A stretch of DNA of 64,000 bases from a virus: UHGV virus genome UHGV-0218015; one strand, 5' to 3'. How positions within the stretch are numbered: position 1 is the stretch's first letter; every line of letters begins with the position of its first letter. Positions 8,002-25,933 of the stretch are shown in pieces. Position numbers and translations under genes: made by a program. The notes beneath the pieces are model-generated. The model was not told the origin of the DNA and searched no databases. It saw only the letters and a program-made list of their open reading frames with translations.

Positions 8002-9858
8002 ATGGCTAAAGAGTTTATTGACAATCAAAACGACGTTGTGACTGGTGCTGCTGGTGCTGCTGGTGCTGCTGCAGATCCAATTCCGTCTTTCGGTGGCGCG
8101 GGAGCTGCTACTGTGGATAATACCAATGCGGCCAACGCTTTTGGTGGGATGTCTAAAAACATCTCCACTTTCGATAAAGCTTTCGGATACATGTCCTTCG
8201 TGTCCACTGCTTCTCAGTTCACTAGCCTGATTGAGAAGATGGCGGAGAAGAACACATACCTGCGTAACTTCCGTTGGGGTGTCATTGACGGCATCAACTC
8301 TGAAATGGGTTCTGCTGCATACGTGGCTGGTCCGTCCGGCGATAACCATAACGAATGGCTCTACGGCATCCTGTTCTTTGAACATGGCCAGTCCATCCGT
8401 TTCTACGAAATCAACGGTAAAGAAAACTACTACACCCTGGCGCAGCTGTTCAGTCAAGAAGGTGTGATGAACAACATCACTAACCAGATTGCAACTCAAC
8501 ACAATCTGCCGAGCGTACAGTTCATGGTAATGAACTGCGTACCGGAACTGGGTAAAACCATGAACGAAGAATGGGCTAACCAGCTCATGGGCCAGATTGC
8601 ACTGGGTATCTTCGGTCGTCATTCTGGCTACCTGGGCTACCTGAAAATGACCCGTTCTGATCGCTTCACCGCGCAAGTTAGCGTAGTTGAAGAAGGTTCT
8701 GTAACTGACGTTAACGGTTCCGCACAGCGTGCTGACCTGATGGTTGTGGTTGACCATACTCGTACCGGCAACAACGATAATAACCCGACGCTGTTCTCTT
8801 CTGAACGCCTCCAGAATTATCCGAGCGTTGCAGGTGTTGGTTACATCAACCTCCGCCATAAAGGTAAACCTCAGACTCTGACTAACGGTACTCAGGACCT
8901 GCGTCAGCTGGAAGCCGAAGTGGTTGTTTCTCTGATGGATTCTCAATCCTCTGGGGCAATGGCACCTATCGAGCGTCAGCTGATTGAACTGGCCGCGTTC
9001 GCACAAATCGCCACTATCGGCGGCTGGCGTGAACGTTTCATGCAATCGCTGAACAAAACCGATCGTCGCTTCTCCCGCGTTCTGGAGTATGTAGAATGGG
9101 GCAGCGAAAAACCTGACCTGAGCAAAATCGACGGTAACCGTGAAGTTATCGAGAAATGCCTGGACACCTTCGCTAACCCGACTGCGGCTCTGGTGGTGAA
9201 CCATCGTGCAGGTAACGGTATCGGTGGTCTGTCTACTCTCCTGAGTGAAATCGGGATGGGTAACACCAACGCACTGTATACTCTGTTCAACATCCTGGAT
9301 AACATGGCCAGCAACGGCGCGACTAAGTTCAGCACTCGCTTCAAAGCGCTGCTGGGCAAGGACACCAACTTTGAGTGCAAACATGTTGTTATTGCCGGTT
9401 GCCCGACTATCTCTGGTCAGTATTTCAGCAACAGCCAGAAACGTAGCTTCCAGGATATGGACTTGGTTTCCGCTCTGACTAAAGTGGGCGACAACCAGCG
9501 TGATGCGATCGACTACATCAGTGCACAGTCCTACTCTCACCGCTACCTGAATGCGCGTGACCAGCGTCTGTACCTGCTGAAAATGGCTGCGTCCATGTTC
9601 GGTAGCAAACAGCCGCAGGTAACGGGTGAAGCGTCTGACCTGGCGATCAATCCGTTGTTTGGTAAGGCACTGGTGGAATACATCACCGAAAACTGCAACT
9701 TCCAGGTGAACGGTGTTACCGCAGCGAACAGCCTCACTCACTCTGTGTTTGTTAACACGGGTAATGAGAACTTCGCTCTGTCTGGTAGCGGTCCTAACGC
9801 ATTTGGTAGCGATTTCGGTATGTCCTTCGCTGCAACTGACTGGCGTCCGACTTTCTAA
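8002..9858 (+). CDS. abundant 618-aa protein; candidate phage-nucleus shell protein (chimallin-like) or major structural protein
   Basis: extreme codon bias (652-codon stop-free antisense shadow), tandem promoters, strong terminator; Gly/Ala/Phe-rich termini with SFGG/AFGG motifs; sits immediately upstream of the RNAP beta-prime gene; functional call is inference. Confidence 0.55.
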   Translation: MAKEFIDNQNDVVTGAAGAAGAAADPIPSFGGAGAATVDNTNAANAFGGMSKNISTFDKAFGYMSFVSTASQFTSLIEKMAEKNTYLRNFRWGVIDGINSEMGSAAYVAGPSGDNHNEWLYGILFFEHGQSIRFYEINGKENYYTLAQLFSQEGVMNNITNQIATQHNLPSVQFMVMNCVPELGKTMNEEWANQLMGQIALGIFGRHSGYLGYLKMTRSDRFTAQVSVVEEGSVTDVNGSAQRADLMVVVDHTRTGNNDNNPTLFSSERLQNYPSVAGVGYINLRHKGKPQTLTNGTQDLRQLEAEVVVSLMDSQSSGAMAPIERQLIELAAFAQIATIGGWRERFMQSLNKTDRRFSRVLEYVEWGSEKPDLSKIDGNREVIEKCLDTFANPTAALVVNHRAGNGIGGLSTLLSEIGMGNTNALYTLFNILDNMASNGATKFSTRFKALLGKDTNFECKHVVIAGCPTISGQYFSNSQKRSFQDMDLVSALTKVGDNQRDAIDYISAQSYSHRYLNARDQRLYLLKMAASMFGSKQPQVTGEASDLAINPLFGKALVEYITENCNFQVNGVTAANSLTHSVFVNTGNENFALSGSGPNAFGSDFGMSFAATDWRPTF

Positions 9859-12957: not shown

Positions 12958-13626
12958 ATGGATCAAGAACCGGGAAAATTTAATGGGGTGCCCATTGAAG
13001 AACTTTCTGGCCGTGCTAAGTTTGAGTTTGAGAAACTTCTTGAAATGGAAGAGATGCTTAAACAGGGCCAGGGTGTGTGCAGCGTGTTTACTGAATCGAT
13101 GTTCCGTCGACAAGGTTTACCGCTGTTGTCGGGGATGCTGGACGGTACGTTTAACGAAGATACCTGGACGGATTATGTAGGGAACGCTTTCGTTCCGTTA
13201 CAGATTGTTTCGGATTCGGATAATTCAAAACTGCTCTTTACGATCCCGCCTCTGCTTAATACCGGTCGGTCACTTCAACATGTTGACGGTCAGCCATCGC
13301 TCACCGAAGAAACAGAGATGATTCGCCAGCAAGCCGATATCATTTCCGAGGTCGGTGAACGGCAGATGTATCAGATGATCGATTATACGCTGGATGGTAT
13401 CGAACAGTTATCGTACGAAGAAAATGCACTTCGTGCAAAACAGGTTATCGATCTGTTAAACTGGATCTTCCGTCGTTATAACGTATCAGGGCAATTACCT
13501 TATCCTGAAGGACTTGAAGAATTGTGCAACCGTATCCAAGGACGAAAGAAACCTGCAACGGCGGCACAACCTGAACAGTCCTCCCCTGCTAAGGGAAGAA
13601 GAATCATCGATGAAGAGGATTACTAA
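12958..13626 (+). CDS. hypothetical protein (222 aa)
   Basis: ORF; start 2 nt after upstream stop. Confidence 0.5.
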   Translation: MDQEPGKFNGVPIEELSGRAKFEFEKLLEMEEMLKQGQGVCSVFTESMFRRQGLPLLSGMLDGTFNEDTWTDYVGNAFVPLQIVSDSDNSKLLFTIPPLLNTGRSLQHVDGQPSLTEETEMIRQQADIISEVGERQMYQMIDYTLDGIEQLSYEENALRAKQVIDLLNWIFRRYNVSGQLPYPEGLEELCNRIQGRKKPATAAQPEQSSPAKGRRIIDEEDY

Positions 13627-14758
13627 TCCGCCACCGAAACCAGTTGGCGTCAAACGCATTTTCTCAACGGGCGATGTACATTTACTGCACCGTCGTGTAC
13701 CGACGTGGCATATTGTTAACGTGCTCAAGGAAACCTTAGAACGGTTCGATAATACGATTGACGCTATTTATATAGCTGGCGATTTATTTGATGATTCCCG
13801 GCATTTGCGGCAAGAAGATTCTCAAGAAGCCATAGGGTTTTTAACCTGGTTATTGCTCTGGGCCAAACAGACGAATACCGCTATTCGTGTCTTGGAAGGA
13901 ACACCCTCCCACGATCATAAACAATCGAAAATCGTTGAAGAGTTAAATCAGGCGGTGGGTGCAGATTGTTTGTATCTGGATAAGATTGGGGTGTTTTACG
14001 ACGAGGCGTTAGGAGCGACTATCGGTTGGGTCCAGGACGAGTATAAAGCCCTGGGTTCAGAGTCTATTGATGCTGCCGCAACAGAACAGGAAATGGCTGA
14101 ATTATTAGCCACGCGCGGTATACAGCAGATGGATTTCTGCTTTATGCATGGCTGCTTTCAGTTCCAAGTTCCCGTTGAGTCTACCCGCTTTTTCCATACA
14201 GATTTTTGGGAACCGTTAGTCAAGCATTTGATTATCATCCACCACGATCATCGTAGGAAACAATTGGGTAAGATTCGTGTACCAGGCAGCCCCGATCGCC
14301 TGGCAATGGGTGAAGAAGAGGACAAAGGCTTTGCTATTGTCGATTTCACTCCTGATTTAGCCAGAGATTATTTCTTGGTTAATGAACGCGCTTGCCCGCA
14401 GGTTAAAATTGCTGCGGAGGAGGACTACGAATCGCAGTACGCGAAATGTCTCTCTGCGCTTGAGTATATTGATACTCATCCGTCCTCGGTAATAGGACGA
14501 TTGGAAATTGAATATTATCCCGATTCTCCATTGGCGGAAGCCATTACTCGGTGGAAATCGCAATATTCATTCCATATTTCAGGTACGCGTATACGTACGC
14601 CTGAAGAGGAGCAAATTCTCGCAGCCGGTTTTGCTATCGACGCAGAGGTCGAGGAAACCATCTCTGAAGAGAATGTTGAAGCGATTTTGTTAGAAGCATT
14701 AGTGCCGTTTAAATACGATGCACAAATTGTCACTGACATTATCAGGAGCATCAAATGA
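13610..14758 (+). CDS. SbcD/Mre11-like calcineurin-type phosphoesterase (putative recombination nuclease)
   Basis: motifs STGDVHL, IAGDLFDD, GTPSHDH, IIIHHDH in canonical order; start at ATG 13610 with AAGGGA RBS (ORF open from 13514). Confidence 0.5.
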   Translation: MKRITNPPPKPVGVKRIFSTGDVHLLHRRVPTWHIVNVLKETLERFDNTIDAIYIAGDLFDDSRHLRQEDSQEAIGFLTWLLLWAKQTNTAIRVLEGTPSHDHKQSKIVEELNQAVGADCLYLDKIGVFYDEALGATIGWVQDEYKALGSESIDAAATEQEMAELLATRGIQQMDFCFMHGCFQFQVPVESTRFFHTDFWEPLVKHLIIIHHDHRRKQLGKIRVPGSPDRLAMGEEEDKGFAIVDFTPDLARDYFLVNERACPQVKIAAEEDYESQYAKCLSALEYIDTHPSSVIGRLEIEYYPDSPLAEAITRWKSQYSFHISGTRIRTPEEEQILAAGFAIDAEVEETISEENVEAILLEALVPFKYDAQIVTDIIRSIK

Positions 14759-15591
14759 CCCCAATCAGTGTTGATCGCACGTTTGGGTTTTATCAAATGT
14801 CAATTGCTACATCGTTGGCTTTTGAAGGGCTTCTCCATGAAGGAGAATATGCCGATTGGAAGGGTCCTGTCCCTATCCACAAGTATCAGGATATTTACCT
14901 GAATCTACGGACGTTGTTCCGTAACGCGTTTTACGCGTTTGAAACGAATCGTGAACGATTAACACCTGAAGTGTTGCTGGCATCGATTGAAGAAGATATT
15001 GCTTCTATTAACGCTACCGCGAAAGCGGTAGCGCCTTCGGTGCTATGTGTCCCCTATATCTGTACGTATAAAAGTGCGAACAGAATCTTTCCCGAAGCAG
15101 CGTTCCGTACGATCGCAGGCGGGCAGGAAAAGATGACACCTAACCAGCATCACTTTAATGCGTTAGAACACGATACGTTAAAGTTATACGGTGAAAAATA
15201 CCCTGAGCAATTCAAAAGCTTTGATGTGTTTCCGAAAGGACAGCACGACACGTTGATTTTAACCCATTACCCTGCCGATCTGCTGGCCTACAAAGATTTC
15301 CCGCTGTTGAATTTGTTAGAATCACACACGGGGAAAATTAAAGGTCGGTTAGAATGGTACACGAAGCTTTACGGTAAACCCGAACAGATCCCGTTTAACA
15401 AAGCGTTCCTAACGCTATTTGGTGATGGGTATATGTTCTCCCCACTTGACAGAAAGGTTCGTAAGGTGGTGTTGAAGACTGCCGAGAAATACCACTGGCG
15501 ACAAGATACGACCATGGATCGTATTTACAGTTGCTTGAAGTTGGTTAACGAACCCTTTGTCATTGAGTTCCTTCGTAGATTGTCTCGCTAA
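14755..15591 (+). CDS. hypothetical protein (278 aa)
   Basis: ATGA overlap with upstream nuclease gene, AGGAG RBS. Confidence 0.5.
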   Translation: MTPISVDRTFGFYQMSIATSLAFEGLLHEGEYADWKGPVPIHKYQDIYLNLRTLFRNAFYAFETNRERLTPEVLLASIEEDIASINATAKAVAPSVLCVPYICTYKSANRIFPEAAFRTIAGGQEKMTPNQHHFNALEHDTLKLYGEKYPEQFKSFDVFPKGQHDTLILTHYPADLLAYKDFPLLNLLESHTGKIKGRLEWYTKLYGKPEQIPFNKAFLTLFGDGYMFSPLDRKVRKVVLKTAEKYHWRQDTTMDRIYSCLKLVNEPFVIEFLRRLSR

Positions 15592-15649
15592 TTTTACAGA
15601 TCGTTTTGTTAGTTTGAGCACTCCGAAAATGTAAAAATAGGATAAGTAA

Positions 15650-16294
15650 ATGGTCAATAAAAACTTCCTTAAAGAGAAATGGCTTTACCCGCAGACTGAG
15701 CCGGATCAACAGGGCCGTACCCGTAAACTGGGCATTGAATTGAACGAATTCAATGGTGATGTGGAACTGATGAAATTCCACTACTCCTTTGGTAAAGGCG
15801 AAGGTCTTTATTTCACCGCAGGCTATACTGTTTGCGTTGATATCTTTGAAACCCTGCGTACGGTGATGCAGAAACCCGAAAAAGTCGTTTTCAAATGGGA
15901 AGATGCAAAAGGTAAGAAGGCACCGGTTAGCTTACACGTAGGTCGTGATGAAAACCTGACACCGTTCTTTGCACTGAGCGGCGAGATCCCAGGGGTTGGT
16001 GCGCGCCAGAAGAAATTCTATTTCACTTATCCGAAAGGTTATCGTGTTTTCCGTAATGGACAACTGGTCTCCGATCTGGAACTGGCAGAGCGTCAGCTAC
16101 GCGCGTTCCTGAAAAATGCGGATGTATTCCTGGAAGATTTCCGTGACAACTATAAACCGCGTGAGTTTAATAACGCAGGTGGTGGTAGTTACGGTCGCGG
16201 TGGTTACAATAACGGCGGCAATGGCGGCGGTTATAACAACCAGTCTGGTGCAAAAGCCCCAACACCAACTAACGATTTTGACGATATTATTTAA
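15650..16294 (+). CDS. putative ssDNA-binding-like protein with SSB-type C-terminal tail
   Basis: Gly/Tyr/Asn-rich linker GGGSYGRGGYNNGGNGGGYNNQSG followed by acidic tip NDFDDII, resembling E. coli SSB MDFDDDIPF tip (from memory); N-terminal domain unassigned. Confidence 0.4.
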   Translation: MVNKNFLKEKWLYPQTEPDQQGRTRKLGIELNEFNGDVELMKFHYSFGKGEGLYFTAGYTVCVDIFETLRTVMQKPEKVVFKWEDAKGKKAPVSLHVGRDENLTPFFALSGEIPGVGARQKKFYFTYPKGYRVFRNGQLVSDLELAERQLRAFLKNADVFLEDFRDNYKPREFNNAGGGSYGRGGYNNGGNGGGYNNQSGAKAPTPTNDFDDII

Positions 16295-16313: not shown

Positions 16314-16345
16314 TAGCCCCAGGATATCCTGGGGCTCTTTATCGT
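16314..16345 (+). terminator. hairpin terminator (weak T-run)
   Basis: agccccagga tatc ctggggct. Confidence 0.4.
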
Positions 16346-16427
16346 GTATGTGTGTAGAATACAGTCGAAGTTATCTGAGATAGATTTTATCTTAGTGCAC
16401 GACTATGCTATTCCTGGAGATTTTAAA

Positions 16428-18056
16428 ATGCGTATTGAAAAGAATCGTGACCGTTTAGTGATAAAATACGGTGAAAAGGAGGTCGCGTTTAATGGTTTCC
16501 GAAACGGACGTAAAGACGTGAATGTGCCAGACGTACGCGATAGTTTCGGACAGATCGTAACGCATGATAAAATCATGTTCATGGAAATCGATCGTTATTG
16601 GTCAACTTTAACGCCCGAAGAGAAAAGCGAACTGTTTTCAGTTTACGAAGAATTAGAGTTGTTAGCTAATGAACCCCCGGAAGTTATTCGTGAACACGTT
16701 CCCACACTCGTCGCGAGAATTGCTAAATTTCATCACGCAGATAGATTCCGCCAGCTTTATCCACACGGCTCGGTGTGGATTCCTCAAAACGTCCACGAAA
16801 CGTACGAAGAGATGTCGTCTAATTATCCAAAAGAGATGACGTATATTGTACAAGATTATTACGAACTGGTGATTTTGTCTTTGATGACAAAACCGTTTAT
16901 TCCCGTATTCTTGATTTTGGACGCTTTTCCTGCAACGCGTGCTTCTGTTGAGTCGAAGCGCAAAAGTGTTTATAACCTGACCTACTGCATGGAGCTATTG
17001 TCGGATACCGAGATTGCCACGCTGCCAGCCATTACAAAGTTGCGCGAGTTTTTAGTGTCGGTGATTTCGAAAGTTCAAGACGGGGGCAGTAAAGGACCCA
17101 ATACTGCAAATCTTACCGTCCTGGCATCTATCTGCGGCTACGGCACGGATATGGTAGAGGAATACATCGTAGCGTTCGCTGTTATCCGTTTAATTGCGAT
17201 GAAGTTAATCGGTGCCGAGCTACCACCGGGTACGATGGTTGAAAACAACATCGTGGCGGGAATGTATTTCAATATTCGACAAGAAATTGAAACGGGCTTC
17301 GCGGGAAAAATTTCCGGTCAAAACGTGATGCTAAAGGCGAATCCTGAGAAAATCATGTTCAACGGCGAGAAGGGGAAAACTTCGTCGATTGACTTGGTTC
17401 AAGCTCGGACTAAAGCACCGATGAAAGAATTCGTTCGTACCCAAGAATTCTTTAATGACTACCGTCGTGCGGTGCGTGCTTTGAATCTCGATATTGCTCC
17501 CGCAGATGTGAAAGTGCTGATAGATTCTATCAACATTAATCATCAGTATCCGTTCTACGAACTCTACGAATGGTTGGTGGCGGCAGTGATGCACCGATTT
17601 GCAGATCGTCGTACATACAAGGAAATCGACTCGGAAGCATTTAAGAACGCGATGGGTATATCCCAAGCCGTTTACATCTATTACGGAATGCCTGAGATTG
17701 CACAGCTGTTAAGTTGTGAGATGATCCGGGCACCACTAAACGGCGGGTATCCTATCGAACCAATCGATAATGAGATTAAAATAAAAACGGATAGATATTA
17801 TCCACAGGCATACCGTAAGCATCGTAATACTTACGAACAGTCAACGTTGAAGGATTCTCTCAGCTTGTTGGTTCGTGAGCATATTGCACCGTTCAACTTC
17901 AATCTCAGGGCAACACCGGAAGCAGCCAGAATGTTACGGTGTGGGACAGTGATGTTGGACTATTCGCCTCATCCGCGACTTCAGAACATGTTAGCAGAAT
18001 TTCTGTTAATTCAAAACAGAAAGAAATGTGAAGAAGTGGCATGGTTTAATCAATAA
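16428..18056 (+). CDS. hypothetical protein
   Basis: ORF 16344..18056; start moved to ATG 16428 with GGAG RBS. Confidence 0.5.
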   Translation: MRIEKNRDRLVIKYGEKEVAFNGFRNGRKDVNVPDVRDSFGQIVTHDKIMFMEIDRYWSTLTPEEKSELFSVYEELELLANEPPEVIREHVPTLVARIAKFHHADRFRQLYPHGSVWIPQNVHETYEEMSSNYPKEMTYIVQDYYELVILSLMTKPFIPVFLILDAFPATRASVESKRKSVYNLTYCMELLSDTEIATLPAITKLREFLVSVISKVQDGGSKGPNTANLTVLASICGYGTDMVEEYIVAFAVIRLIAMKLIGAELPPGTMVENNIVAGMYFNIRQEIETGFAGKISGQNVMLKANPEKIMFNGEKGKTSSIDLVQARTKAPMKEFVRTQEFFNDYRRAVRALNLDIAPADVKVLIDSININHQYPFYELYEWLVAAVMHRFADRRTYKEIDSEAFKNAMGISQAVYIYYGMPEIAQLLSCEMIRAPLNGGYPIEPIDNEIKIKTDRYYPQAYRKHRNTYEQSTLKDSLSLLVREHIAPFNFNLRATPEAARMLRCGTVMLDYSPHPRLQNMLAEFLLIQNRKKCEEVAWFNQ

Positions 18057-18086: not shown

Positions 18087-19793
18087 ATGGCAATGAAACT
18101 TTTGAAACTGCAAATGTATCCGGTGTACGAAATCCCAGAGCAGATTCGTCGTCGTATCGGGTTCTTTGAATCGCAGCACGCTTTGGATGAGTTAGTGGAT
18201 GTGGTTGCAGAGCACGGTGATAAAGCAACAGGTTCTCGGGCTTATCAAGAAGCCCTGGGTCAGATTGTGGGCTTCGATAATACTCCAACCGGTATTGAAC
18301 GTCCATTCATTAACGTGAGCGATAATGAATCACAGCCAATCCACTTTGCGTATAACTCTCGTGATACGGGTGTGTATAACTTCGTGGCGATTATTGTTTC
18401 GAACTCGTTAAATGACACACGGACTCAAGAAACGCGTTATGTTGTTTCTGGGTATACATCTCAGGCAGAGCGGTCCATGTTTAATCACCTGCCGGATGAC
18501 ATGGTTCTGTATATCAACGAAATATACGGGTTACAATGTACGTATATCACCGATGCGTTTGGCGGGCGTCGTATCAACCCGGATTCTTTCCGTCTGATAG
18601 ACAACTATGTGTTGTCTAAGACACTAACTGCGGACAGCTATGTGGAGCACACCATCGACGTTATTTCTACCGCGAAAGCGGCTGATATGGTACGTAAAGT
18701 GGTGAAGGCAGGCGAACAGATTGAGCTGGATAATAACACGGTTATCTCCGCTAATTGCCAGCGTGCGCCACAGTTGATGTCTAGTCAATTAACCCGACCG
18801 GAATCTTTCGTGACGGCAATCTCCAATTCCTTTATTAACACCATGGGGATTGAAACGGAGCTGAGCGCAGTAGATAGTTTCTTCGCAGGAGATCATTCTC
18901 TTGGGGTAGAATCTGAACTTAGTCAGATCGGCGTGATGCGTAACTTCAATAGTTACGAATTGGTGAAGGCGTTTAGAACAGCCATATCCAACGCCACGTC
19001 AGATATGACTAGTGGTTGGAACGTTGCGAACCGTGCAGCATTTAAACTGTGTGACTTGCGTAATGCGGTGGTCAATCCCGAAGATGTGGATGCTGCAATT
19101 GCGCACTCGCTGGCTGTCGCGGCCCGTCGTGGTTTTGGTGAAATCGAACGCACCGATGATTGGGTAGGGCGTAATAACTATTCTACTCAGGGTTCATTAG
19201 TGGCGTTTGATTTAGCCATGTTACTGGGGCCTGTGGTCACCCGTAATCTTATCGGTGAAGTGACTTTCTTCTACGATAACCGTATGGCGGATATTGCAAC
19301 ACCTCCTCTGTTGCAAGTGTCAAAACACAACGTTGGGGCATTAACTGAAGACGGATTACCGGATGTATTAGCACGTCGCTTCTTAAGTGACTTACAAGGC
19401 GTATTCTTGCAAGTGACTAAGCATAACCGTATTCGTTGTAAGATGACTGTAACGTGTATCGTTGGGGTGGTTTCGCGTATTGAAATCGAAATCGATGGCG
19501 AGCTGCCTGAGTATTATACACATGCGTCGTTCATGAAAGCACGTCTGCATTGTGGTACAACAACTGACCTTCAGTACACGAACCAGTTAGCTGCAGAAAC
19601 AGCGCAGCTGATGAATAAAGTGGAAGAAGGGTACCAAGAATTCAACCGTGGTCAGAACCGTTCGAATATCCTGTCGAATATTCCAACTGCCCCTGTGTCT
19701 GCGCCTACGAGCCTGGGGAGTTTCGGTAGCTTTGGCGGTAGCGATATGTCAACGCCTGCGCCAGTGTCTGGCTTTGGTGCATTCGGCGAGTAA
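18087..19793 (+). CDS. hypothetical protein (568 aa) with FG-motif C-terminal tail
   Basis: C-terminus SLGSFGSFGGSDMSTPAPVSGFGAFGE. Confidence 0.55.
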   Translation: MAMKLLKLQMYPVYEIPEQIRRRIGFFESQHALDELVDVVAEHGDKATGSRAYQEALGQIVGFDNTPTGIERPFINVSDNESQPIHFAYNSRDTGVYNFVAIIVSNSLNDTRTQETRYVVSGYTSQAERSMFNHLPDDMVLYINEIYGLQCTYITDAFGGRRINPDSFRLIDNYVLSKTLTADSYVEHTIDVISTAKAADMVRKVVKAGEQIELDNNTVISANCQRAPQLMSSQLTRPESFVTAISNSFINTMGIETELSAVDSFFAGDHSLGVESELSQIGVMRNFNSYELVKAFRTAISNATSDMTSGWNVANRAAFKLCDLRNAVVNPEDVDAAIAHSLAVAARRGFGEIERTDDWVGRNNYSTQGSLVAFDLAMLLGPVVTRNLIGEVTFFYDNRMADIATPPLLQVSKHNVGALTEDGLPDVLARRFLSDLQGVFLQVTKHNRIRCKMTVTCIVGVVSRIEIEIDGELPEYYTHASFMKARLHCGTTTDLQYTNQLAAETAQLMNKVEEGYQEFNRGQNRSNILSNIPTAPVSAPTSLGSFGSFGGSDMSTPAPVSGFGAFGE

Positions 19794-19816: not shown

Positions 19817-21172
19817 ATGAAAATTATTGAATTCTATAAATCGTTTCTTAAATCACAAGGATTCGATTTTGAAAACGATTTACTCACTCGTGACGGTGGC
19901 GAACCGGCAGAGTTTACGTACAACAAAGTGAAGCGCCGTTTGGCGCTTCCTACCCCAGCGATGATTAAGCGCGGTATGGAAGACGATGATGGGCGTGAAT
20001 GTCAGGCATTTCATCCGCTGTGTGAATCGGTGCTGGCAGGCGAATCAGGGACAATTCGTTTTCTGAAGAAATCCATTAATGCGAACCTGTTCATTCGTTC
20101 CTTTGCATTAATCGACGCGATTCTGGAAACGGGGGCAAGTGGCAAAGCAGTACGTTCAGCTTCCTACAAGAAGTTCTTAACAGAACAGATTTGCGAAGGG
20201 ATGAAAGATCCGACGTTCGACGAACGTTTGGTGAAATCCTGGGAAGCGGTGAAAGCGTTCGTCTATGGACAATTGGAAAAAGATAAAAAGCACAAGATCA
20301 CCCAGCTTTTTATTGCATCTGATTTAGTTATTGACGGCGTGAAGTTTAACCGCGTAGCTAATTATCGAAATATGTTCGAAGAAGAATCGTTAGATGGTAC
20401 TGCAATGTACTTCTCTGCGAAGCTTCAACGTAAACAAGACAAAATCATTATCCATCGTTTACTGACCACCGTGTTCGGTTGGTATCCGAGTGTAACAGGG
20501 TCTAATGATTCGCGTCCGTATTTCGGTTGCTTAGCACGTGGCTGGGCGCAGTACGTTGTGAATTACAATAACGTCGTTAAGGGATTGCGCGACCACACAT
20601 CTTTACGTCCGTTGGAAGATGAATGGATTTCTCAGCTGGACAATATGGATATTTACGATAACGTCATTCAGACATTACCGTATAACACCGGTCCACGTTC
20701 TGACAGCCCTGAACGTGATACTACGGCGCATGATTTCCGTATCGATCGTTCGCAGGCCCCGCAGCAGATCCCACAGAAACGTGCATCGGATGCGGATAAA
20801 GCGGATAAGTCCGATCCGATGGAATTCTTCCGTGCACGTGAACGTAACATGGCCACGCAAAGTCCTTATGGGAATTTGACGCCAGCGATGCAACGTTATG
20901 CTGAGCAACACGGAACAACTAACCCTGCCAACGGTATGGTAAGTCGAATTTCTGTTGTGGATGCGTTTGGCGGTGAGCGCAAGGTGTCACCTTTCGGTGG
21001 TCAGAGTAGTTTTGGTGTAGGGAATACCGGAGGCTCTTTGGCAAGTACCTTTGGTGGAGGGAATAATTCTTTCAGCGGGGATGTCGGTGGGACTAGCGCG
21101 TTTAGCACGAGTTCAGCATTTGCAACGAACAGCAGTTTCGGTGGATTTGCAACTTCGGCATTTACGCGTTAA
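19817..21172 (+). CDS. hypothetical protein (451 aa) with FG-repeat-like C-terminal tail
   Basis: last 80 aa Gly/Ser/Phe-rich with AFGG, PFGG, SFGV, TFGG, SFGGF. Confidence 0.55.
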   Translation: MKIIEFYKSFLKSQGFDFENDLLTRDGGEPAEFTYNKVKRRLALPTPAMIKRGMEDDDGRECQAFHPLCESVLAGESGTIRFLKKSINANLFIRSFALIDAILETGASGKAVRSASYKKFLTEQICEGMKDPTFDERLVKSWEAVKAFVYGQLEKDKKHKITQLFIASDLVIDGVKFNRVANYRNMFEEESLDGTAMYFSAKLQRKQDKIIIHRLLTTVFGWYPSVTGSNDSRPYFGCLARGWAQYVVNYNNVVKGLRDHTSLRPLEDEWISQLDNMDIYDNVIQTLPYNTGPRSDSPERDTTAHDFRIDRSQAPQQIPQKRASDADKADKSDPMEFFRARERNMATQSPYGNLTPAMQRYAEQHGTTNPANGMVSRISVVDAFGGERKVSPFGGQSSFGVGNTGGSLASTFGGGNNSFSGDVGGTSAFSTSSAFATNSSFGGFATSAFTR

Positions 21173-21596: not shown

Positions 21597-23834
21597 ATGA
21601 AAACGCCAGTAGAGCTAATGAGCAGTGTGGCTGACCGTGAGATTAATATCACCGAAGTATCAGGTGCAAGGGCATCGATGGTAGGCAACCATATGAAGTC
21701 CGCGGTCCCTATCGATAATCCTGAACCATCGCCACATTTCACAGGTGCAGATATAAACTACCACGATTTTCTGTTCAACGACGTTGTAGAAGATCCCGGT
21801 AGCATCTGCCACTATATGACCAAAGACGGTCGTCAGCGCCGTGCGACATTTACACGTTATGGTCGTCGTGGGGATTCTAAAGCGTTGGAACATGCTATCT
21901 TCTTCCGCCGTGCAGAAATGAAGGGCGGTAAAACCATGATAGATGTGCTGGAGATTAACTTCTATACTAACCACGACAACATCTTCTCATCTGAGAAGCG
22001 TGAGTCGATGAAACTGCGTAGTATTTTACGTGGTGAAACCGATCAGTTGGAAAAGGATGAAATTCTTACAACAATGTCGTGTATGGTGGAAGGTGAGTAC
22101 GCTGATAGCGTCGTGCTACCAACTGTTACGATTTCGCATCCTGATATTATCGAGGATTCTTACACCATCTCTGAGTACGCCGCCCAGAAGCTCCACGGTT
22201 ACGGTTTGAAAATCGTTGAAAAGACGCTACGCGAAGACGAGTTTTTACTGGATACTTACGGTTATATCGATCCGAATGGTAATCGTGTCCCACGCTATTT
22301 CCCGGATGTGGGGGAAGCTATTCGTGACGATGGGCTGGTCATTGCATCACGTCGTTTCGATGAGCTTTACGGTGCAATTGATGCGTCGCTTGGGGAAACC
22401 CAACACGTCTCCCCGTTCTTTGATAGTTGCGAATATGTGGATGCCGATCCCGTCCATTATAAAGCACGCCTTGCGGGCGACAAAGAACTGATGGAGAGTA
22501 GCGGTACACGCATCGTCGATATCCAGGTGTGGCGTGATGAAACGTCTTGCGCGAATGGCACCAACAATATTTCTTGTACCGAAGAGAACAAACGAGAACT
22601 GGATAAATACGCATTAGCATTGAAAGACTATTACAATGCCATTGTACGTTTCTATTTCTCGATGTCTCGTGACAAAAATATTATTTGGTCGCCGAAGGCG
22701 TGTGTGCTGTTGGAAAAAGCCTTCGCTTCCGAAACGTACGAAGTCTATCACGAGTTTCGTGAAGAGATTCGCGTGGTGATTGATGAAGCGATTCGTCGTG
22801 GTGAATATGGTAAAGAAAATGTCAGTCAGCAAATTCTTTCTAAGTTGACCGCACCAGTACAGCGTGGACTCAGCGATCCCATCAACACGTATACCATTCG
22901 TATTGCTGTTCGTTATCCGATCCCGGTAACGGTGTCGTCTAAGATTACTGACCGTTCGGGTACGAAAGGGATTGTTGGACGCGTGTTACCCGTTGAACAG
23001 ATGCCGATTAACGAATTCGGTGAACGTGTTCACGTTTTACGTTCGATGAACGCTGTAATTCGTCGCTCGACTTATGCAGCACTATTCCACATGTATTGGT
23101 CAGCTGCGTCTGAGCAGTTGAAGATGCGTCTTAAACCAATGCTGGACGAAGGCCGTATCAGTGAATGTTGGGAAATCCTGATGGATTATCTGTCACGTTA
23201 TAATCCTGAATGGGCCAACACACTACAGGTAACACATCCTACGGAGGATTTACAACGCGAACTCTTTAAAGAGATTTACGATTTTACAATACGTATTTAC
23301 TTGCCACATGAACTTGACGACACGCCAGTCGATATCAGTGAACGGTTGGGTGAATTTAAACCACGTAAATCAAAACTTCTACTTACTAACTTCGACGGTA
23401 AGCAGGAATGGACAAAAGATGAATTTTACGTAGGTGGTGTGGAAACATTACGTCTGGATAAAACAGGTCGTGAGTTTTCCAGTATCTCGTCAATGTATCT
23501 GAATTATCTGGGTACGATAGACGCGTCTAACCAAGGTCGTGGCTCGTATCCGATAAACTATAAAACGCTAAAATGGGCTGGTCCTTCGGAAGAACGACTG
23601 TTAGCGGGTTATGGTCCAGGTAACTACGAAGAAGTTCACGATAGGGCAAATAACCCTGCGGTACATCGTGAGATTTTAGTAGGGCTTTATCGATCTCAAA
23701 CCCCATCTAATCCGGGTCCATTAGTAGACCGGAATAAATTCCCGTTAGGGGATTCGCAGATTGACAGGATGATGAAAAACATCCACAACTGTGAAGGGTT
23801 TGAATTGGTGAAAATGAAAAGGGGCGATGAATAA
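21597..23834 (+). CDS. RNA polymerase beta-like subunit, C-terminal part
   Basis: 745 aa; DRSGTKGIVGRVLPVEQMPINEFGERVHVLRSMNAV resembles bacterial beta GRHGNKGVISKI..PIEDMPY..PSRMN region; AGPSEERLLAGYG resembles GGQRFGEMEVWALEAYG (from memory). Confidence 0.7.
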   Translation: MKTPVELMSSVADREINITEVSGARASMVGNHMKSAVPIDNPEPSPHFTGADINYHDFLFNDVVEDPGSICHYMTKDGRQRRATFTRYGRRGDSKALEHAIFFRRAEMKGGKTMIDVLEINFYTNHDNIFSSEKRESMKLRSILRGETDQLEKDEILTTMSCMVEGEYADSVVLPTVTISHPDIIEDSYTISEYAAQKLHGYGLKIVEKTLREDEFLLDTYGYIDPNGNRVPRYFPDVGEAIRDDGLVIASRRFDELYGAIDASLGETQHVSPFFDSCEYVDADPVHYKARLAGDKELMESSGTRIVDIQVWRDETSCANGTNNISCTEENKRELDKYALALKDYYNAIVRFYFSMSRDKNIIWSPKACVLLEKAFASETYEVYHEFREEIRVVIDEAIRRGEYGKENVSQQILSKLTAPVQRGLSDPINTYTIRIAVRYPIPVTVSSKITDRSGTKGIVGRVLPVEQMPINEFGERVHVLRSMNAVIRRSTYAALFHMYWSAASEQLKMRLKPMLDEGRISECWEILMDYLSRYNPEWANTLQVTHPTEDLQRELFKEIYDFTIRIYLPHELDDTPVDISERLGEFKPRKSKLLLTNFDGKQEWTKDEFYVGGVETLRLDKTGREFSSISSMYLNYLGTIDASNQGRGSYPINYKTLKWAGPSEERLLAGYGPGNYEEVHDRANNPAVHREILVGLYRSQTPSNPGPLVDRNKFPLGDSQIDRMMKNIHNCEGFELVKMKRGDE

Positions 23835-25933
23835 TGAAGGGCACTCCAGTTCACGTGCGTGATCTGTGTAAGCTGAACTCGGATCAGGTGTGGCTATTGC
23901 GCGGCAGATATGAAGTGACGTTTGATGACGGGGTAACCTTAAACATGTCAGGACGTCACATTAAAATCAGTTGGCCTTATTGGGGGCTAACACGGTTTTA
24001 TCCGCAGATCCCAATCAGTTCGCAAATGGCGTATAAACATGGTGACACCGCTACAGACGACGCACATCTGAAGTTTATGTCATTGGCAGCTGTAGCGGCT
24101 CGTAAAGCGGGTGTGGATTTAGCAGACACCCGTTATTTATTACAGCAGCACGTTTATGCGGATGCGTTTAACTTATCGGTGAAAAATCTGTTATCGTATT
24201 GCGTCACGATTGACTACGATACGATGATGGAAATTTACCAACACCGAAACTTTACGCAGATTCATCAGTGGGCACAAATGTATCCTACTGGATACGACGA
24301 AGAAGGTCGGGATATGGTTGAGGAAGCGTATCTTCTTATCGAAGATATCTTCAAAGACCCACAACTTCGTTTAAACCCTGTGGTGATGTCGGTCTTGGAT
24401 AAGACCATCAAAATGAACCAGGTTCTTCAGGCGTATATACGCGGGAAAACATCAGAGATTGATTCTCGTGTTTATTCTAACCAGGTATGGGAAGGTTTCT
24501 TCACGGGCCTACATTCTGTAATTAGCCGTCTGAAAGAAGCAGGTGCAACGTCACGTTCTCACCTGTATAACACCGATAAAATCGCCGATGCGGAATATGC
24601 GTCACGTAAGCTACAGTTAGCAGCTAACGTGTTAATGTATTTCGAATACGACGATTGTGGTACGCATCATGTTCACCGTCACACGTTTACAGAAAGTAAA
24701 CTGGAGCGTAAGAAGTACGATGCGATGGTGGGAATGCGTTATCGTTTTGAAGGCGTGGGCGGTCCGTGGTTACGATTCGAGAAAGGGGAGTTTGAGAAAG
24801 TCTTAGGCAAACCTATTGAGTTTCGTAGTGCGATGTGTTGTAAGGGGATGGCACGTCAAAGTATTTGTGCTACGTGTATGGGTGATTTGATTTATAACCT
24901 TTCGCCGGGAACGTCCCCAGGTCACTTGGCCTCAACCTCGATATCTGAAAAGGGTACACAGGGGATTCTCTCAACGAAACACCTGGACTTCTTACGCTAT
25001 CTGCTGAACCTGGTGCTGACTCCAAGAATGCGGGATTATCTTGGGGAGTATAAACACAACTCCGTAAAAGGGTTGAGTTTACGAGAGAAACCGCAGTACG
25101 GTAATTGGGATGAATACCAACTCGTTATTTCTGATGAAGTCTATTCTGAAATCAGCCAAATCGCGTATCATGACGACTTGGAAGTGATCGACGAAACGGC
25201 ATTGCCGGAGATTAACGAACTGACCTTTTTGCGATTGGACGAAGCCGGGAATGTGCTGGCCGAAGATCCCATTGATGTCCGTATGGGCGTTTGTGGTAAC
25301 TTCTCGAAAGCCTTCTTGCATTTCTTCCTGAAGCAGCGTGATAACATTACGTTTCCGTCGAAGAAACTGGTACGGATTCCTCTGAAAGGTTGGAAGCCGA
25401 GTTGGCCGATACTAATTTATACGAATCGGTCTGAATCTATGGCGGAGTTTGTAGCAGGGTTAGAATTGAAACTTCGTTCGGTTGCGTCTGATAAATCGGA
25501 TACTTTCGAACAGTTCTCTGATGACTCAATGCGCTTGAGCAAGAAGTCGGGTAAGGTAAAACCAACGACACTGGTTCAGATGCGTGGTGCTACAGAAAAG
25601 CAATGTACGCACGCGTTATTTGATGTGTTTAAATATATCCAACGTAAGCTCGGTGGTATTCCGATGACACACATCGCGATTATGCTGGCGATATCACGCG
25701 TTGAATCACCGACCAATCCTTTCCCGGCGGTTGGGTTTGATAGTGAAGATGCTGATGTGATGGATGGCAAACGTTTCGAGGATCACAATACGTTGATTGC
25801 GATGCGTTCAGCTGTACCGATGTTGTTATTCGAAGGCCAACAGAAAAACCTGGACAACGTGCGTTTCTACACGTCGCGTAAACGTCCGGCGTCGTTATAC
25901 GACAATACGGTGGCCGCGACTATCATAGAGTAA
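23834..25933 (+). CDS. RNA polymerase beta-prime-like subunit, C-terminal part
   Basis: 699 aa; YDDCGTHH (cf. EDDCGTHEG), CATCMGDL (cf. CAHCYGRDL zinc site), SISEKGTQGILSTKH (cf. SIGEPGTQLTMRTFH). Confidence 0.7.
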   Translation: MKGTPVHVRDLCKLNSDQVWLLRGRYEVTFDDGVTLNMSGRHIKISWPYWGLTRFYPQIPISSQMAYKHGDTATDDAHLKFMSLAAVAARKAGVDLADTRYLLQQHVYADAFNLSVKNLLSYCVTIDYDTMMEIYQHRNFTQIHQWAQMYPTGYDEEGRDMVEEAYLLIEDIFKDPQLRLNPVVMSVLDKTIKMNQVLQAYIRGKTSEIDSRVYSNQVWEGFFTGLHSVISRLKEAGATSRSHLYNTDKIADAEYASRKLQLAANVLMYFEYDDCGTHHVHRHTFTESKLERKKYDAMVGMRYRFEGVGGPWLRFEKGEFEKVLGKPIEFRSAMCCKGMARQSICATCMGDLIYNLSPGTSPGHLASTSISEKGTQGILSTKHLDFLRYLLNLVLTPRMRDYLGEYKHNSVKGLSLREKPQYGNWDEYQLVISDEVYSEISQIAYHDDLEVIDETALPEINELTFLRLDEAGNVLAEDPIDVRMGVCGNFSKAFLHFFLKQRDNITFPSKKLVRIPLKGWKPSWPILIYTNRSESMAEFVAGLELKLRSVASDKSDTFEQFSDDSMRLSKKSGKVKPTTLVQMRGATEKQCTHALFDVFKYIQRKLGGIPMTHIAIMLAISRVESPTNPFPAVGFDSEDADVMDGKRFEDHNTLIAMRSAVPMLLFEGQQKNLDNVRFYTSRKRPASLYDNTVAATIIE

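What the first reader, a model, noticed from the sequence alone, without database searches (positions are those of the whole stretch)
15650..16294. Protein ending in an SSB-like Gly-rich linker and acidic DFDDII tip
The 214-aa protein ends in GGGSYGRGGYNNGGNGGGYNNQSG...NDFDDII, closely resembling the intrinsically disordered linker and acidic tip (MDFDDDIPF) of bacterial SSB, the hub that recruits host replication and repair proteins. Either this is the phage SSB with a host-like tail, or a protein that uses a mimic tail to hijack or compete for host SSB-interacting partners. The N-terminal domain is unassigned from sequence alone.
Basis: partly seen in the sequence, partly recalled or inferred. 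Interest (0 to 1): 0.55.

Follow-up and report, generated by a model that had tools for sequence, protein, structure and literature searches.

The report
ChmC/Imp6 ortholog with SSB-like tail
This gene is a new copy of ChmC/Imp6, the known and essential RNA-binding protein that nucleus-forming jumbo phages place at their "phage nucleus"; it is not a classical SSB, but its disordered tail does resemble the bacterial SSB tail, a likeness that is shared across the family and absent from the papers searched here.

Summary
Window 15650-16294(+) encodes a 214-aa protein with a Gly/Asn-rich disordered tail ending in NDFDDII. It is the only one of 67 ORFs in the window with this kind of tail.

ChmC is a published, essential Whirly tetramer. 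It binds phage mRNA (ssRNA better than ssDNA), forms tail-dependent condensates, localises to the nuclear shell and binds Imp1.

The tail is conserved across 70 family members. In distant clades, 26 of 44 members end in the literal SSB-type tip (DDIPF). The window's clade has a proline-less variant (acid-hydrophobic-hydrophobic).

Verdict: a new member of a known family. Whether the tip docks onto a partner has not been tested.

The parts
15650..16294 (+). Complete CDS (214 aa plus stop codon) of the ChmC/Imp6 ortholog
   Evidence: ORF found. It matches phrog_3284 at 5e-51, the same family as PhiKZ gp67, PhiPA3 gp61 and Goslar gp176. hhalign against the PhiKZ-type family gives 99.7%, E=1e-26.
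15650..16159 (+). Whirly/PUR-like domain that binds single-stranded nucleic acid (residues 1-170; topology beta-beta-beta-alpha, then four beta strands and a long helix)
16160..16267 (+). Disordered Gly/Asn/Tyr/Gln-rich linker ending in a short Ala/Pro/Thr stretch (residues 171-206). It corresponds to the N/G-rich region of ChmC and is analogous to the SSB disordered linker.
   Evidence: pLDDT is 30-64. Composition was computed. Its length varies among orthologs. 63 of 70 family members have a linker that is at least 60% G/N/Q/S/Y.
16268..16291 (+). Acidic-hydrophobic C-terminal tip TNDFDDII (residues 207-214), of the 'acid-hydrophobic-hydrophobic-COOH' class
   Evidence: D211 is invariant and the tip pattern is conserved in orthologs. 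In the 70-member census, 66 have at least two D/E in the last 8 residues, 68 have no K/R/H there, and 67 have a hydrophobic residue in the last two positions.
15639..15642 (+). Shine-Dalgarno-like AGGA, 7 nt upstream of the ATG
   Evidence: Read directly from the sequence.
16315..16336 (+). Terminator-like GC-rich hairpin followed by CTTTAT, 20 nt after the stop codon
   Evidence: Consensus scan. It is a pattern match only, but it fits ChmC being a very abundant product with its own transcript end.
18087..19793 (+). Imp1/PicA ortholog (568 aa). In PhiKZ this is the direct binding partner of ChmC/Imp6.
   Evidence: It matches phrog_3141 at 7e-128, and PhiKZ gp69 matches the same family at 2.7e-179. 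Its position is collinear with PhiKZ. The Imp1-Imp6 complex is described in bioRxiv 10.1101/2024.03.27.586873.
16344..18056 (+). gp68-like subunit of the non-virion RNA polymerase. The real start is probably the ATG at 16428, giving 542 aa as called in identical contigs.
   Evidence: BLASTP to PhiKZ gp68 gives 8e-11. It matches phrog_3209 at 3e-154. The 542-aa gene call comes from L006 and L007.
13514..15591 (+). Upstream neighbours: an SbcD-like nuclease (gp65-like) and a gp66-like protein
   Evidence: BLASTP to PhiKZ gp65 gives 1.5e-30 and to gp66 gives 5e-29. The nuclease matches phrog_100, SbcD-like, and the gp66-like protein matches phrog_3229.
8002..9858 (+). Chimallin (ChmA) ortholog, which shows the phage belongs to the nucleus-forming family
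   Evidence: It is 53% identical over 91% of its length to Asesino gp39. Asesino gp039 is the GFP-verified ChmA (PMC11724907).

Best explanation
The ORF is the ChmC/Imp6 gene of a previously unsequenced jumbo phage related to SPN3US, phiEaH2 and Asesino (family Chimalliviridae, nucleus-forming). By orthology, the product is an abundant Whirly-fold protein expressed early in infection. It should assemble into a homotetramer and use the basic face of its beta-sheets to bind single-stranded nucleic acid without sequence specificity, mainly phage mRNA made inside the phage nucleus. It should concentrate at the chimallin shell together with the import factor Imp1/PicA, which is encoded two genes downstream, and it is needed for mRNA export, nucleus maturation and progeny production. 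The C-terminal 44 residues are a disordered module built like the tail of bacterial SSB: a Gly/Asn/Gln-rich linker that provides weak multivalent contacts, and an acidic tip ending in hydrophobic residues. In the family, removing the whole tail abolishes condensates and shell localisation but leaves tetramer formation and RNA binding intact. My inference, which has not been shown, is that the tip is the specific element of this tail. It would bind a basic/hydrophobic site either on the Whirly surface of neighbouring tetramers (competing with nucleic acid and cross-linking the condensate, as the SSB C-terminal peptide does on the OB fold and as the Glu-Trp tail does in plant Whirly proteins) or on a phage partner at the shell, with Imp1/PicA the first candidate. 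Because the tip class follows the phage clade, the partner is more likely phage-encoded than host-encoded.
For: Identity is shown here by five lines of evidence. (1) The window protein matches the same PHROG (3284) as the three characterised ChmCs: window 5e-51, PhiKZ gp67 6e-80, PhiPA3 gp61 6e-81, Goslar gp176 1e-35. (2) Profile-profile comparison gives 99.7%, E=1e-26, and 98.6%, E=5e-16 with all tails removed. (3) The fold is Whirly. The best viral structural matches are uncharacterised proteins of jumbo phages: Klebsiella phage Eowyn, which the PhiKZ gp67 search also recovers, Klebsiella phage Miami and Pseudomonas phage EL. (4) Gene order is collinear with PhiKZ, PhiPA3, Goslar and SPN3US. 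(5) The window encodes a chimallin. Function comes from the literature on orthologs. ChmC is a Whirly homotetramer that binds ssRNA at 58 nM and ssDNA at 184 nM. Its N/G-rich and S/D/E-rich C-terminal region is required for condensates and for shell localisation in PhiPA3. The Goslar tail deletion supports nucleus growth but does not rescue phage titre. Knockdown retains mRNA in the nucleus and gives smaller nuclei with less DNA (PMC11077065). gp67 binds Imp1 at a 2:1 ratio. The gene is essential or near-essential in Tn-seq and ASO screens. Tail conservation is shown here. Literature precedents for the inferred tip mechanism are E. coli SSB condensates, which need the linker and are enhanced by C-terminal peptide contacts with the OB fold, in competition with ssDNA (PMC7584906), and StWHY1, where Glu271/Trp272 contact Lys188 and a Trp272 mutation raises ssDNA binding (PMC9070903).
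Against: No experiment has been done on this protein or its clade; all functional statements are transferred from orthologs with 15-25% core identity. Plain BLASTP does not link it to PhiKZ gp67. Only 2 of the 6 basic residues mutated in PhiPA3 ChmC align with basic residues here, and that part of the alignment is unreliable. Neither monomer AlphaFold model docks the tip with any confidence. Published tail deletions remove linker and tip together, so a specific role for the tip is my inference. The published interpretation (a condensate driver plus an 'electronegative cluster') needs no docking site.
Confidence: 0.85

Rival explanations
1. ChmC is, in addition to or instead of its RNA role, the functional SSB of chimalliviruses. 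On this view it is a Whirly-fold tetramer that coats ssDNA at phage replication and recombination intermediates inside the nucleus, and its SSB-type tail recruits phage enzymes or imported host enzymes such as polymerase, helicase, UvsX, RNase HI or SbcCD.
For: The architecture matches SSB point for point: a tetramer that binds single-stranded nucleic acid, a disordered linker and an acidic-hydrophobic tip. 26 of 44 distant family members end in the literal SSB-type motif, for example DDFDDDIPF. PhiPA3 ChmC binds ssDNA cooperatively at 184 nM. Knockdown gives nuclei with less DNA. The protein is very abundant. The gene sits next to an SbcD-like nuclease. No SSB is mentioned in the core-genome paper or in any chimallivirus paper in the searchable library. 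The closest solved structures (StWhy2, PBF-2) are plant Whirly proteins, which bind ssDNA in plastid and mitochondrial nucleoids.
Against: Affinity for ssRNA is about 3-fold higher than for ssDNA. eCLIP shows binding to phage mRNAs near start codons. mRNA FISH shows an export defect on knockdown. PhiPA3 ChmC sits on the shell rather than throughout the nucleoplasm. The lower DNA content may be an indirect result of a global drop in phage proteins. An unrecognised, divergent SSB elsewhere in the roughly 240-kb genome cannot be excluded; only 64 kb was available here.
Confidence: 0.2
2. The tail has no specific docking function. The N/G-rich linker simply drives condensation, and the acidic end is a generic 'electronegative cluster' that keeps the RNA-binding protein soluble. 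On this view the likeness to SSB is convergence in composition only.
For: This is the interpretation given in the ChmC paper. For the window protein the order similarity to the SSB tail is only z=2.7. AlphaFold gives no confident conformation for the tip. The tip sequence varies between clades.
Against: A generic acidic cluster does not explain why 67 of 70 members have a hydrophobic residue in the last two positions, why 68 of 70 exclude basic residues from the last eight, or why 26 of 44 distant members converge on the acid-hydrophobic-Pro-x-aromatic-COOH motif. Positional conservation at the extreme C-terminus, next to a freely varying linker, is typical of a short linear docking motif.
Confidence: 0.3
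3. The tail mimics host SSB. It would compete with host SSB for Exo I, RecQ, PriA, chi and similar partners, or recruit those host proteins to the phage compartment.
For: The tip shares the DFDD-I core with E. coli SSB. Many distant family members carry exact DDDIPF or DDLPF tips, with z=5-8 against shuffles. At least one host protein (TopA) is imported into the PhiKZ nucleus.
Against: All 18 members of the window's clade lack the Pro-aromatic ending, which ends the host E. coli SSB tip; that this ending is essential for SSB partner binding is established knowledge, not tested here. The hosts written in the related phage records are enterobacteria. ChmC acts at or inside a compartment described as excluding host nucleases and importing proteins selectively. 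The tail-coding DNA shows no similarity to E. coli ssb. No host partner has been reported.
Confidence: 0.06
4. It is a canonical OB-fold phage SSB.
Against: The fold is a confidently predicted Whirly/PUR fold and no OB-fold protein appears among the top structural matches. There is no Pfam SSB hit for this protein or for 40 relatives. Sequence searches against the PDB find nothing.
Confidence: 0.01

Closest known systems
ChmC / Imp6 of Chimalliviridae (PhiPA3 gp61, PhiKZ gp67, Goslar gp176, 201phi2-1 gp123)
   Same: It belongs to the same PHROG family and shows profile-level homology. It has the same Whirly fold, the same domain order (Whirly domain, N/G-rich linker, acidic end) and the same position between the gp66-like and gp68-like genes, upstream of imp1/picA, in a chimallin-encoding genome.
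   Different: It is shorter (214 aa against 246-262 aa): it lacks the N-terminal extension of roughly 10-20 residues and an insertion between the two halves of the domain. Core identity is only 15-25%, undetectable by BLASTP. The tip belongs to the proline-less acid-hydrophobic-hydrophobic class (DFDDII), unlike FDDEIPNF, FDEDMPSF or AFDGLAF. This clade has not been characterised experimentally.
Bacterial SSB (E. coli Ssb: OB-fold tetramer, disordered linker, C-terminal peptide MDFDDDIPF)
   Same: It works similarly in outline: a tetramer that binds single-stranded nucleic acid, carrying a Gly/Gln/Asn-rich disordered linker of variable length, a short Pro/Ala-rich stretch, and a conserved acidic tip ending in hydrophobic residues. 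Condensation depends on the tail in both systems.
   Different: The fold is different (Whirly, not OB), so it is not a family member. The window tip lacks the penultimate Pro and terminal Phe. The family prefers RNA to DNA. No interaction with proteins of the SSB interactome is known.
Plant Whirly proteins (StWHY1/PBF-2 p24, StWhy2) and T. brucei MRP1/MRP2
   Different: There is no detectable sequence similarity (no Pfam Whirly hit). ChmC has three rather than four strands in the first repeat. The plant tail is short and lacks a long N/G-rich linker.
Phage SSBs with acidic C-termini (T4 gp32, T7 gp2.5)
   Same: From general knowledge: the acidic C-terminal tail (with a terminal aromatic residue in gp2.5) both shields the DNA-binding surface and recruits the phage's own replisome proteins. 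This is the logic proposed here for a tip that co-evolves with a phage partner.
   Different: Those proteins have OB folds and are dedicated to ssDNA. No homology is detectable.

Membership tests
ChmC/Imp6 (chimallivirus nucleus-associated RNA-binding protein) | Sequence homology to the characterised members (PhiPA3 gp61, PhiKZ gp67, Goslar gp176) | tested here: met
   All four proteins match phrog_3284. hhalign gives 99.7%, E=1e-26, and 98.6%, E=5e-16 with tails removed. Against the single PhiKZ gp67 sequence it gives 95.5%.
ChmC/Imp6 (chimallivirus nucleus-associated RNA-binding protein) | Whirly/PUR-like fold (a tandem of beta strands followed by a helix) | tested here: met
ChmC/Imp6 (chimallivirus nucleus-associated RNA-binding protein) | C-terminal disordered region of about 50 residues: an N/G-rich segment followed by a short acidic segment | tested here: met
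   Residues 171-214 contain 12 G and 8 N and end in NDFDDII. Their pLDDT is below 65.
ChmC/Imp6 (chimallivirus nucleus-associated RNA-binding protein) | Conserved position in the chmA, nvRNAP, imp1 gene block of a chimallin-encoding phage | tested here: met
   The gene order gp64, gp65(SbcD), gp66, ChmC, gp68, gp69(Imp1), gp70 was verified gene by gene. The chimallin ortholog lies at 8002-9858.
ChmC/Imp6 (chimallivirus nucleus-associated RNA-binding protein) | Homotetramer | not testable with these tools
   Only monomer prediction was available. SEC-MALS or a multimer prediction is needed.
ChmC/Imp6 (chimallivirus nucleus-associated RNA-binding protein) | Basic RNA-binding surface (PhiPA3 K30/K48/K59 and R35/R44/R63) | tested here: inconclusive
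   Only K30->R23 and R44->K42 align with basic residues, and the N-terminal half aligns poorly. Within the clade, K26, K42 and K49 are invariant or nearly so.
ChmC/Imp6 (chimallivirus nucleus-associated RNA-binding protein) | Direct binding to Imp1/PicA | not testable with these tools
   The partner gene is present at 18087-19793. The interaction is known only for PhiKZ.
Bacterial/phage OB-fold SSB (Pfam SSB) | OB-fold ssDNA-binding domain | tested here: not met
   There is no Pfam hit, and none of 40 relatives hits SSB. The structural matches are Whirly/PUR folds.
Bacterial/phage OB-fold SSB (Pfam SSB) | Disordered linker of variable length and low complexity | tested here: met
   This is an analogous feature, not evidence of homology.
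Bacterial/phage OB-fold SSB (Pfam SSB) | C-terminal peptide consensus D-F-D-D-D-I-P-F (penultimate Pro, terminal Phe) | tested here: not met
   The window tip is DFDDII. None of the 18 members of its clade has the Pro-aromatic ending, whereas 26 of 44 distant ChmC relatives do. The E. coli reference tail comes.
Plant Whirly family (Pfam Whirly) | Sequence match to the Whirly family profile | tested here: not met
   There is no Pfam hit at E<=1 other than a spurious match to the tail. The resemblance is at the level of fold only.

The most novel reading that the evidence does not exclude
The C-terminal tip of ChmC is a true SSB-type docking peptide on a non-OB scaffold. On this reading ChmC would be the 'SSB-like hub' of the phage nucleus. 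Its tip would recruit specific partners: Imp1/PicA at the shell, and/or phage replication and repair enzymes, and in the clades with DDDIPF tips possibly imported host proteins that bind the SSB tail. ChmC might also serve as the ssDNA-binding protein that has not been identified for chimalliviruses. This would be convergent evolution, or ancient capture, of the complete SSB tail module by a Whirly protein.
Probability: 0.25. Interest if true: 0.7.

Novelty: new member of a known kind. Interest (0 to 1): 0.38.

Why it matters
The gene itself is an ordinary, though divergent, ortholog of a family characterised in 2024, so it should be annotated as ChmC/Imp6 rather than as an SSB or a hypothetical protein. 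The same annotation can be passed to SPN3US gp237, phiEaH2 gp211 and the matching genes of Asesino, Stratton and about 60 related genomes, which carried the label 'hypothetical protein' in every phage record inspected here.

The useful by-product concerns the ChmC tail. It is essential, but so far it has been studied only as a whole and interpreted as a condensate driver. Here it turns out to have a positionally conserved C-terminal motif. In many clades that motif is literally the bacterial SSB tip, and in this clade it is a proline-less variant.

This turns a vague 'disordered region' into a specific hypothesis that can be tested with a peptide. The test could explain how ChmC is tethered to the shell and to Imp1/PicA, whether nucleic-acid binding is auto-inhibited, and whether ChmC also serves DNA replication in phages for which no SSB has been reported.

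Tried and rejected
- **Pfam scan of the protein.** It gave only a spurious sub-threshold RhlB match to the low-complexity tail.
- **Sequence and profile searches of the PDB.** They returned nothing meaningful, only linker-like artefacts. ChmC has no solved structure in that copy.
- **Direct BLASTP of the window protein against PhiKZ gp67.** No hit; profile methods were needed.
- **Linking the 568-aa ORF to PhiKZ gp69 by BLASTP.** This failed but was resolved by the shared phrog_3141.
- **Linking the 618-aa ORF to PhiKZ chimallin.** Shared PHROG, BLASTP and phmmer all failed. It was resolved through Asesino gp039.
- **Possibility that the distant hits with DDDIPF tips are real OB-fold SSBs pulled in by their tails.** Rejected: none of the 40 hits Pfam SSB, they share the VGRD...F-x-F Whirly-core motifs, and the core-only profile match is significant.
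- **Recent capture of the tail from host ssb.** The DNA shows no similarity and the GC content is the same as the rest of the gene.
- **A deeper alignment to see whether AlphaFold docks the tip in cis.** It does not; tail pLDDT is 49-64. This is inconclusive because only a monomer could be modelled.
- **Mapping the PhiPA3 Kmut/Rmut residues.** Inconclusive.
- **A ChmC-PicA complex prediction.** Considered but not run.
- **P0014, P0022 and P0023 (SPFM9-type entries).** Excluded as scrambled sequences.
Full report
**1. The observation**

Window 15650-16294 (+) is an ATG-started ORF of 214 aa.

- AGGA lies 7 nt upstream of the ATG.
- A terminator-like hairpin with a 9-bp stem lies at 16315-16336, right after the stop codon.
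- The last 44 residues contain 12 Gly and 8 Asn and are predicted to be disordered.
- Of the 67 ORFs of at least 100 aa in the window, only two have a base-free acidic tip ending in a hydrophobic residue. Only this one combines that with a G/N/Q/S/Y-rich linker.
- The tail is present in every full-length ortholog down to 41% identity. D211 is invariant, the ending follows [FY]-D-[DES]-[FIVM]-[ILV], and the linker varies in length.

One qualification applies. Compared with the real E. coli SSB tail (...QQSAPAAPSNEPPMDFDDDIPF), the similarity in residue order beyond composition is modest (z=2.7; 40 of 3000 shuffles score as high). The tip also lacks SSB's penultimate Pro and terminal Phe.

**2. 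What the genome is**

The window is a new jumbo phage.

- Megablast of 12 kb around the gene finds at most 76% identity over 8% of the query.
- By protein similarity, the relatives are Erwinia phages phiEaH2, Stratton and Asesino (about 70% identity) and Salmonella phage SPN3US and its group (about 65%).
- The identical protein occurs on two contigs assembled from sequencing runs.
- The window carries the divergent family-B DNA polymerase (PF20286).
- The 618-aa ORF at 8002-9858 is 53% identical over 91% of its length to Asesino gp39. Asesino gp039 is the chimallin shown by GFP tagging to form the nuclear shell (PMC11724907).

The phage is therefore a chimallivirus, that is, a nucleus-forming phage.

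**3. What the protein is**

Pfam finds nothing, and sequence searches of the PDB find nothing. PHROGs places the protein in phrog_3284, a family of unknown function (5e-51).

*Fold.* AlphaFold2 gives a confident model of residues 1-170: pLDDT above 90 with 11 sequences, and 93-98 with pTM 0.77 using 62 sequences. The topology is three beta strands and a helix, then four beta strands and a long helix.

- Foldseek independently ranks PUR-alpha, SsgB and MRP1/2 at the top.
- No OB-fold protein appears among the top matches.

*Link to ChmC.* A Whirly fold combined with an N/G-rich disordered C-terminus and an acidic end is the published description of ChmC (Enustun et al., NAR 2024, PMC11077065). 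I tested the link in four ways.

- **Shared family.** PhiKZ gp67, PhiPA3 gp61 and Goslar gp176, the three proteins named ChmC in that paper, all match phrog_3284, at 6e-80, 6e-81 and 1e-35.
- **Profile search.** A full HMM search of 1.8 billion representative proteins with the ortholog alignment returned 61 relatives, mostly 210-260 aa long. An alignment of PhiKZ gp67 with 39 of them matches the window's family at 99.7% probability, E=1e-26. With every tail cut off, the match is still 98.6%, E=5e-16 over 115 core columns. The low-complexity tail therefore does not carry the match. None of these 40 proteins hits Pfam SSB.
- **Synteny.** Each neighbour matches its PhiKZ counterpart: gp64 (6e-4), gp65 SbcD-like (1.5e-30), gp66 (5e-29) and gp68 (8e-11) by BLASTP, and gp69 and gp70 through shared PHROGs 3141 and 3520. 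PhiPA3, Goslar and SPN3US have the same gene order.
- **Viral structures.** The best viral structural matches are uncharacterised proteins of jumbo phages Eowyn, Miami and EL. Eowyn is also recovered by the PhiKZ gp67 search.

The ORF is the ChmC ortholog of this phage. It is equivalent to SPN3US gp237 and phiEaH2 gp211, and every phage record inspected here labels the matching gene 'hypothetical protein'.

**4. What is known about the family**

These statements come from the literature, not from tests here.

- PhiPA3 ChmC is a homotetramer that binds ssRNA (Kd 58 nM) better than ssDNA (184 nM). Mutating basic surface residues abolishes binding.
- The C-terminal 50-70 residues are disordered, and the protein forms condensates with RNA. 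Deleting residues 204-251 abolishes condensates and shell localisation but not tetramer formation or RNA binding.
- In Goslar, knockdown gives small nuclei with less DNA, retention of mRNA in the nucleus, a global drop in phage proteins and loss of plaques. The tail-less protein supports nucleus growth but does not rescue titre.
- PhiKZ gp67 was independently named Imp6 because it binds the import factor Imp1/PicA (gp69) in a stable complex of about 2:1 (bioRxiv 10.1101/2024.03.27.586873).
- The gene tolerates no transposon insertions and scores as important in an antisense screen.
- The window encodes the Imp1/PicA ortholog two genes downstream.

**5. The tail across the family (new analysis)**

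Among 70 full-length family members:

| Feature | Members |
|---|---|
| Hydrophobic residue in the last two positions | 67 |
| At least two Asp/Glu in the last eight residues | 66 |
| No Lys/Arg/His in the last eight residues | 68 |
| Linker at least 60% G/N/Q/S/Y | 63 |

Many members end in the literal bacterial SSB tip, for example ...DDFDDDIPF...SFDDDLPF and ...NFDDIPF. Their order similarity to the E. coli tail is z=5-8. The characterised proteins end in GFDDEIPNF (PhiPA3), AFDEDMPSF (PhiKZ) and AFDGLAF (Goslar).

The tip class follows the clade:

| Clade | n | acid-hydrophobic-hydrophobic-COOH | acid-hydrophobic-Pro-x-aromatic (SSB type) | Other |
|---|---|---|---|---|
| Window's clade (at least 33% core identity) | 18 | 16 | 0 | 2 |
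| Distant clades | 44 | 7 | 26 | 11 |

The tail-coding DNA shows no similarity to E. coli ssb, so there is no sign of recent capture. In the library searched, no paper mentions phage ChmC together with SSB, and the ChmC paper describes the end only as an S/D/E-rich 'electronegative cluster'. The specific parallel with the SSB linker and C-terminal peptide therefore appears not to have been noted. That library does not include the final published version of the Imp1 paper.

**6. Mechanism**

*Shown for orthologs:* a Whirly tetramer binds single-stranded nucleic acid, and the tail is needed for condensates, shell localisation and productive infection.

*Inferred here:* the positionally conserved tip is the specific element of the tail. 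Two documented precedents suggest how it could work.

- In E. coli SSB, condensation requires the linker and is enhanced by contacts between the C-terminal peptide and the OB fold, in competition with ssDNA. The same peptide also recruits partner proteins (PMC7584906).
- In plant Whirly proteins, a conserved C-terminal Glu-Trp pair contacts a Lys of the Whirly domain, and mutating the Trp raises ssDNA binding (PMC9070903).

By analogy, the ChmC tip could bind the basic Whirly face of neighbouring tetramers, cross-linking the condensate and tuning RNA binding. It could also bind a shell partner. Imp1/PicA is the first candidate, because whole-tail deletion removes shell localisation and Imp1 is a direct binder.

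The clade-specific tip favours a partner that co-evolves with the phage over the host SSB interactome. The window's clade has lost the Pro-aromatic ending even though the host SSB tip ends in IPF, and the hosts named in the related phage records are enterobacteria.

AlphaFold monomer models do not place the tip, and multimer modelling was not available. This step therefore remains a hypothesis.

**7. Rivals**

- **Dual role as the chimallivirus SSB (about 0.2).** For: the architecture, cooperative ssDNA binding, abundance, the low-DNA knockdown phenotype, the SbcD neighbourhood, and the absence of any reported SSB in chimalliviruses. Against: the RNA preference, the eCLIP data and the mRNA-export data.
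- **Generic acidic cluster with no docking function (about 0.3).** Against: the positional conservation at the extreme C-terminus.
- **Host SSB mimicry (about 0.06 for this protein).** Against: the missing Pro-Phe and the protein's location at or inside the phage nucleus.
- **Canonical OB-fold SSB.** Refuted by the fold prediction.

**8. Verdict**

The finding is a correct observation about a gene that turns out to be a new, divergent member of the known ChmC/Imp6 family. Novelty is 'new member of a known kind'. The moderate interest comes from the family-wide SSB-type tip, which gives a specific, testable handle on an essential but mechanistically unclear tail.

Noticed in passing
window 18087-19793 (+) and 19817-21172 (+); compare L001:10437-13517, L002:14608-17629, L003:8519-11441, L004:8482-11428: The C-terminal tails of the Imp1/PicA ortholog and the gp70-like protein are hydrophobic-glycine repeats whose hydrophobic residue changes by clade. 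The window has the FG type (...SLGSFGSFGG...SGFGAFGE, and ...AFGG..PFGG..SFGV..TFGG..SFGGF...; 4-5 FG in the last 80 residues against 2 in the rest of each protein). SPN3US has the LG type, and PhiKZ, PhiPA3 and Goslar have M/Q/G or W/G/M types. FG-like cohesive repeats on a nuclear import factor recall the FG-nucleoporins. The PicA preprint does not contain the words 'disordered' or 'nucleoporin'.
   Followed up: partly
window 16315-16336 (+): A strong terminator-like hairpin (AGCCCCAGGATATCCTGGGGCT followed by CTTTAT) lies 20 nt after the ChmC stop codon, inside a 133-nt gap before the probable true start (16428) of the gp68-like gene. This fits ChmC being expressed at a much higher level than the downstream nvRNAP and import genes.
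   Followed up: partly
proteins P0014, P0022, P0023 (Salmonella phage SPFM9 'SPFM9_00272' and related database entries): These entries contain recognisable ChmC segments in scrambled or reversed block order, for example the tail-like GGGSFGRGGYGGGQGGG near the N-terminus and the N-terminal motif NQEIFKDKWL near the C-terminus. They look like assembly or annotation artefacts and were excluded from the alignments.
   Followed up: no
window 12958-13626 (+): The gp64-like protein (phrog_5171) also ends in an acidic-aromatic tip (...GRRIIDEEDY), and PhiKZ gp64 ends ...DECVYGDEYED. Its 3' end overlaps the longest possible reading frame of the SbcD-like gene, whose real start is probably downstream (382 aa in the gene calls for contigs L006 and L007).
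   Followed up: no
window 59143-60705 (-): This is the only other ORF in the window with a base-free acidic tip ending in a hydrophobic residue (...FTGGMGDELF). It has no low-complexity linker, and its identity was not examined.
   Followed up: no
window 4186-6498 (+), 21597-25933 (+), 25976-27685 (+): Context genes: a divergent family-B DNA polymerase (PF20286, 7e-279), RNA polymerase beta-like subunits (a weak Rpb2 domain 6 hit) and a helicase (phrog_16). This is the conserved chimallivirus replication and transcription block. No OB-fold SSB was seen among the ten ORFs scanned against Pfam.
   Followed up: partly
whole window; L006, L007: The phage has no close relative in the phage collection searched (at most 76% DNA identity over short stretches). 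An identical ChmC occurs on contigs assembled from runs SRR18313951 and SRR35550878. A 91%-identical partial protein is filed under Escherichia coli at NCBI, which suggests an enterobacterial host.
   Followed up: partly
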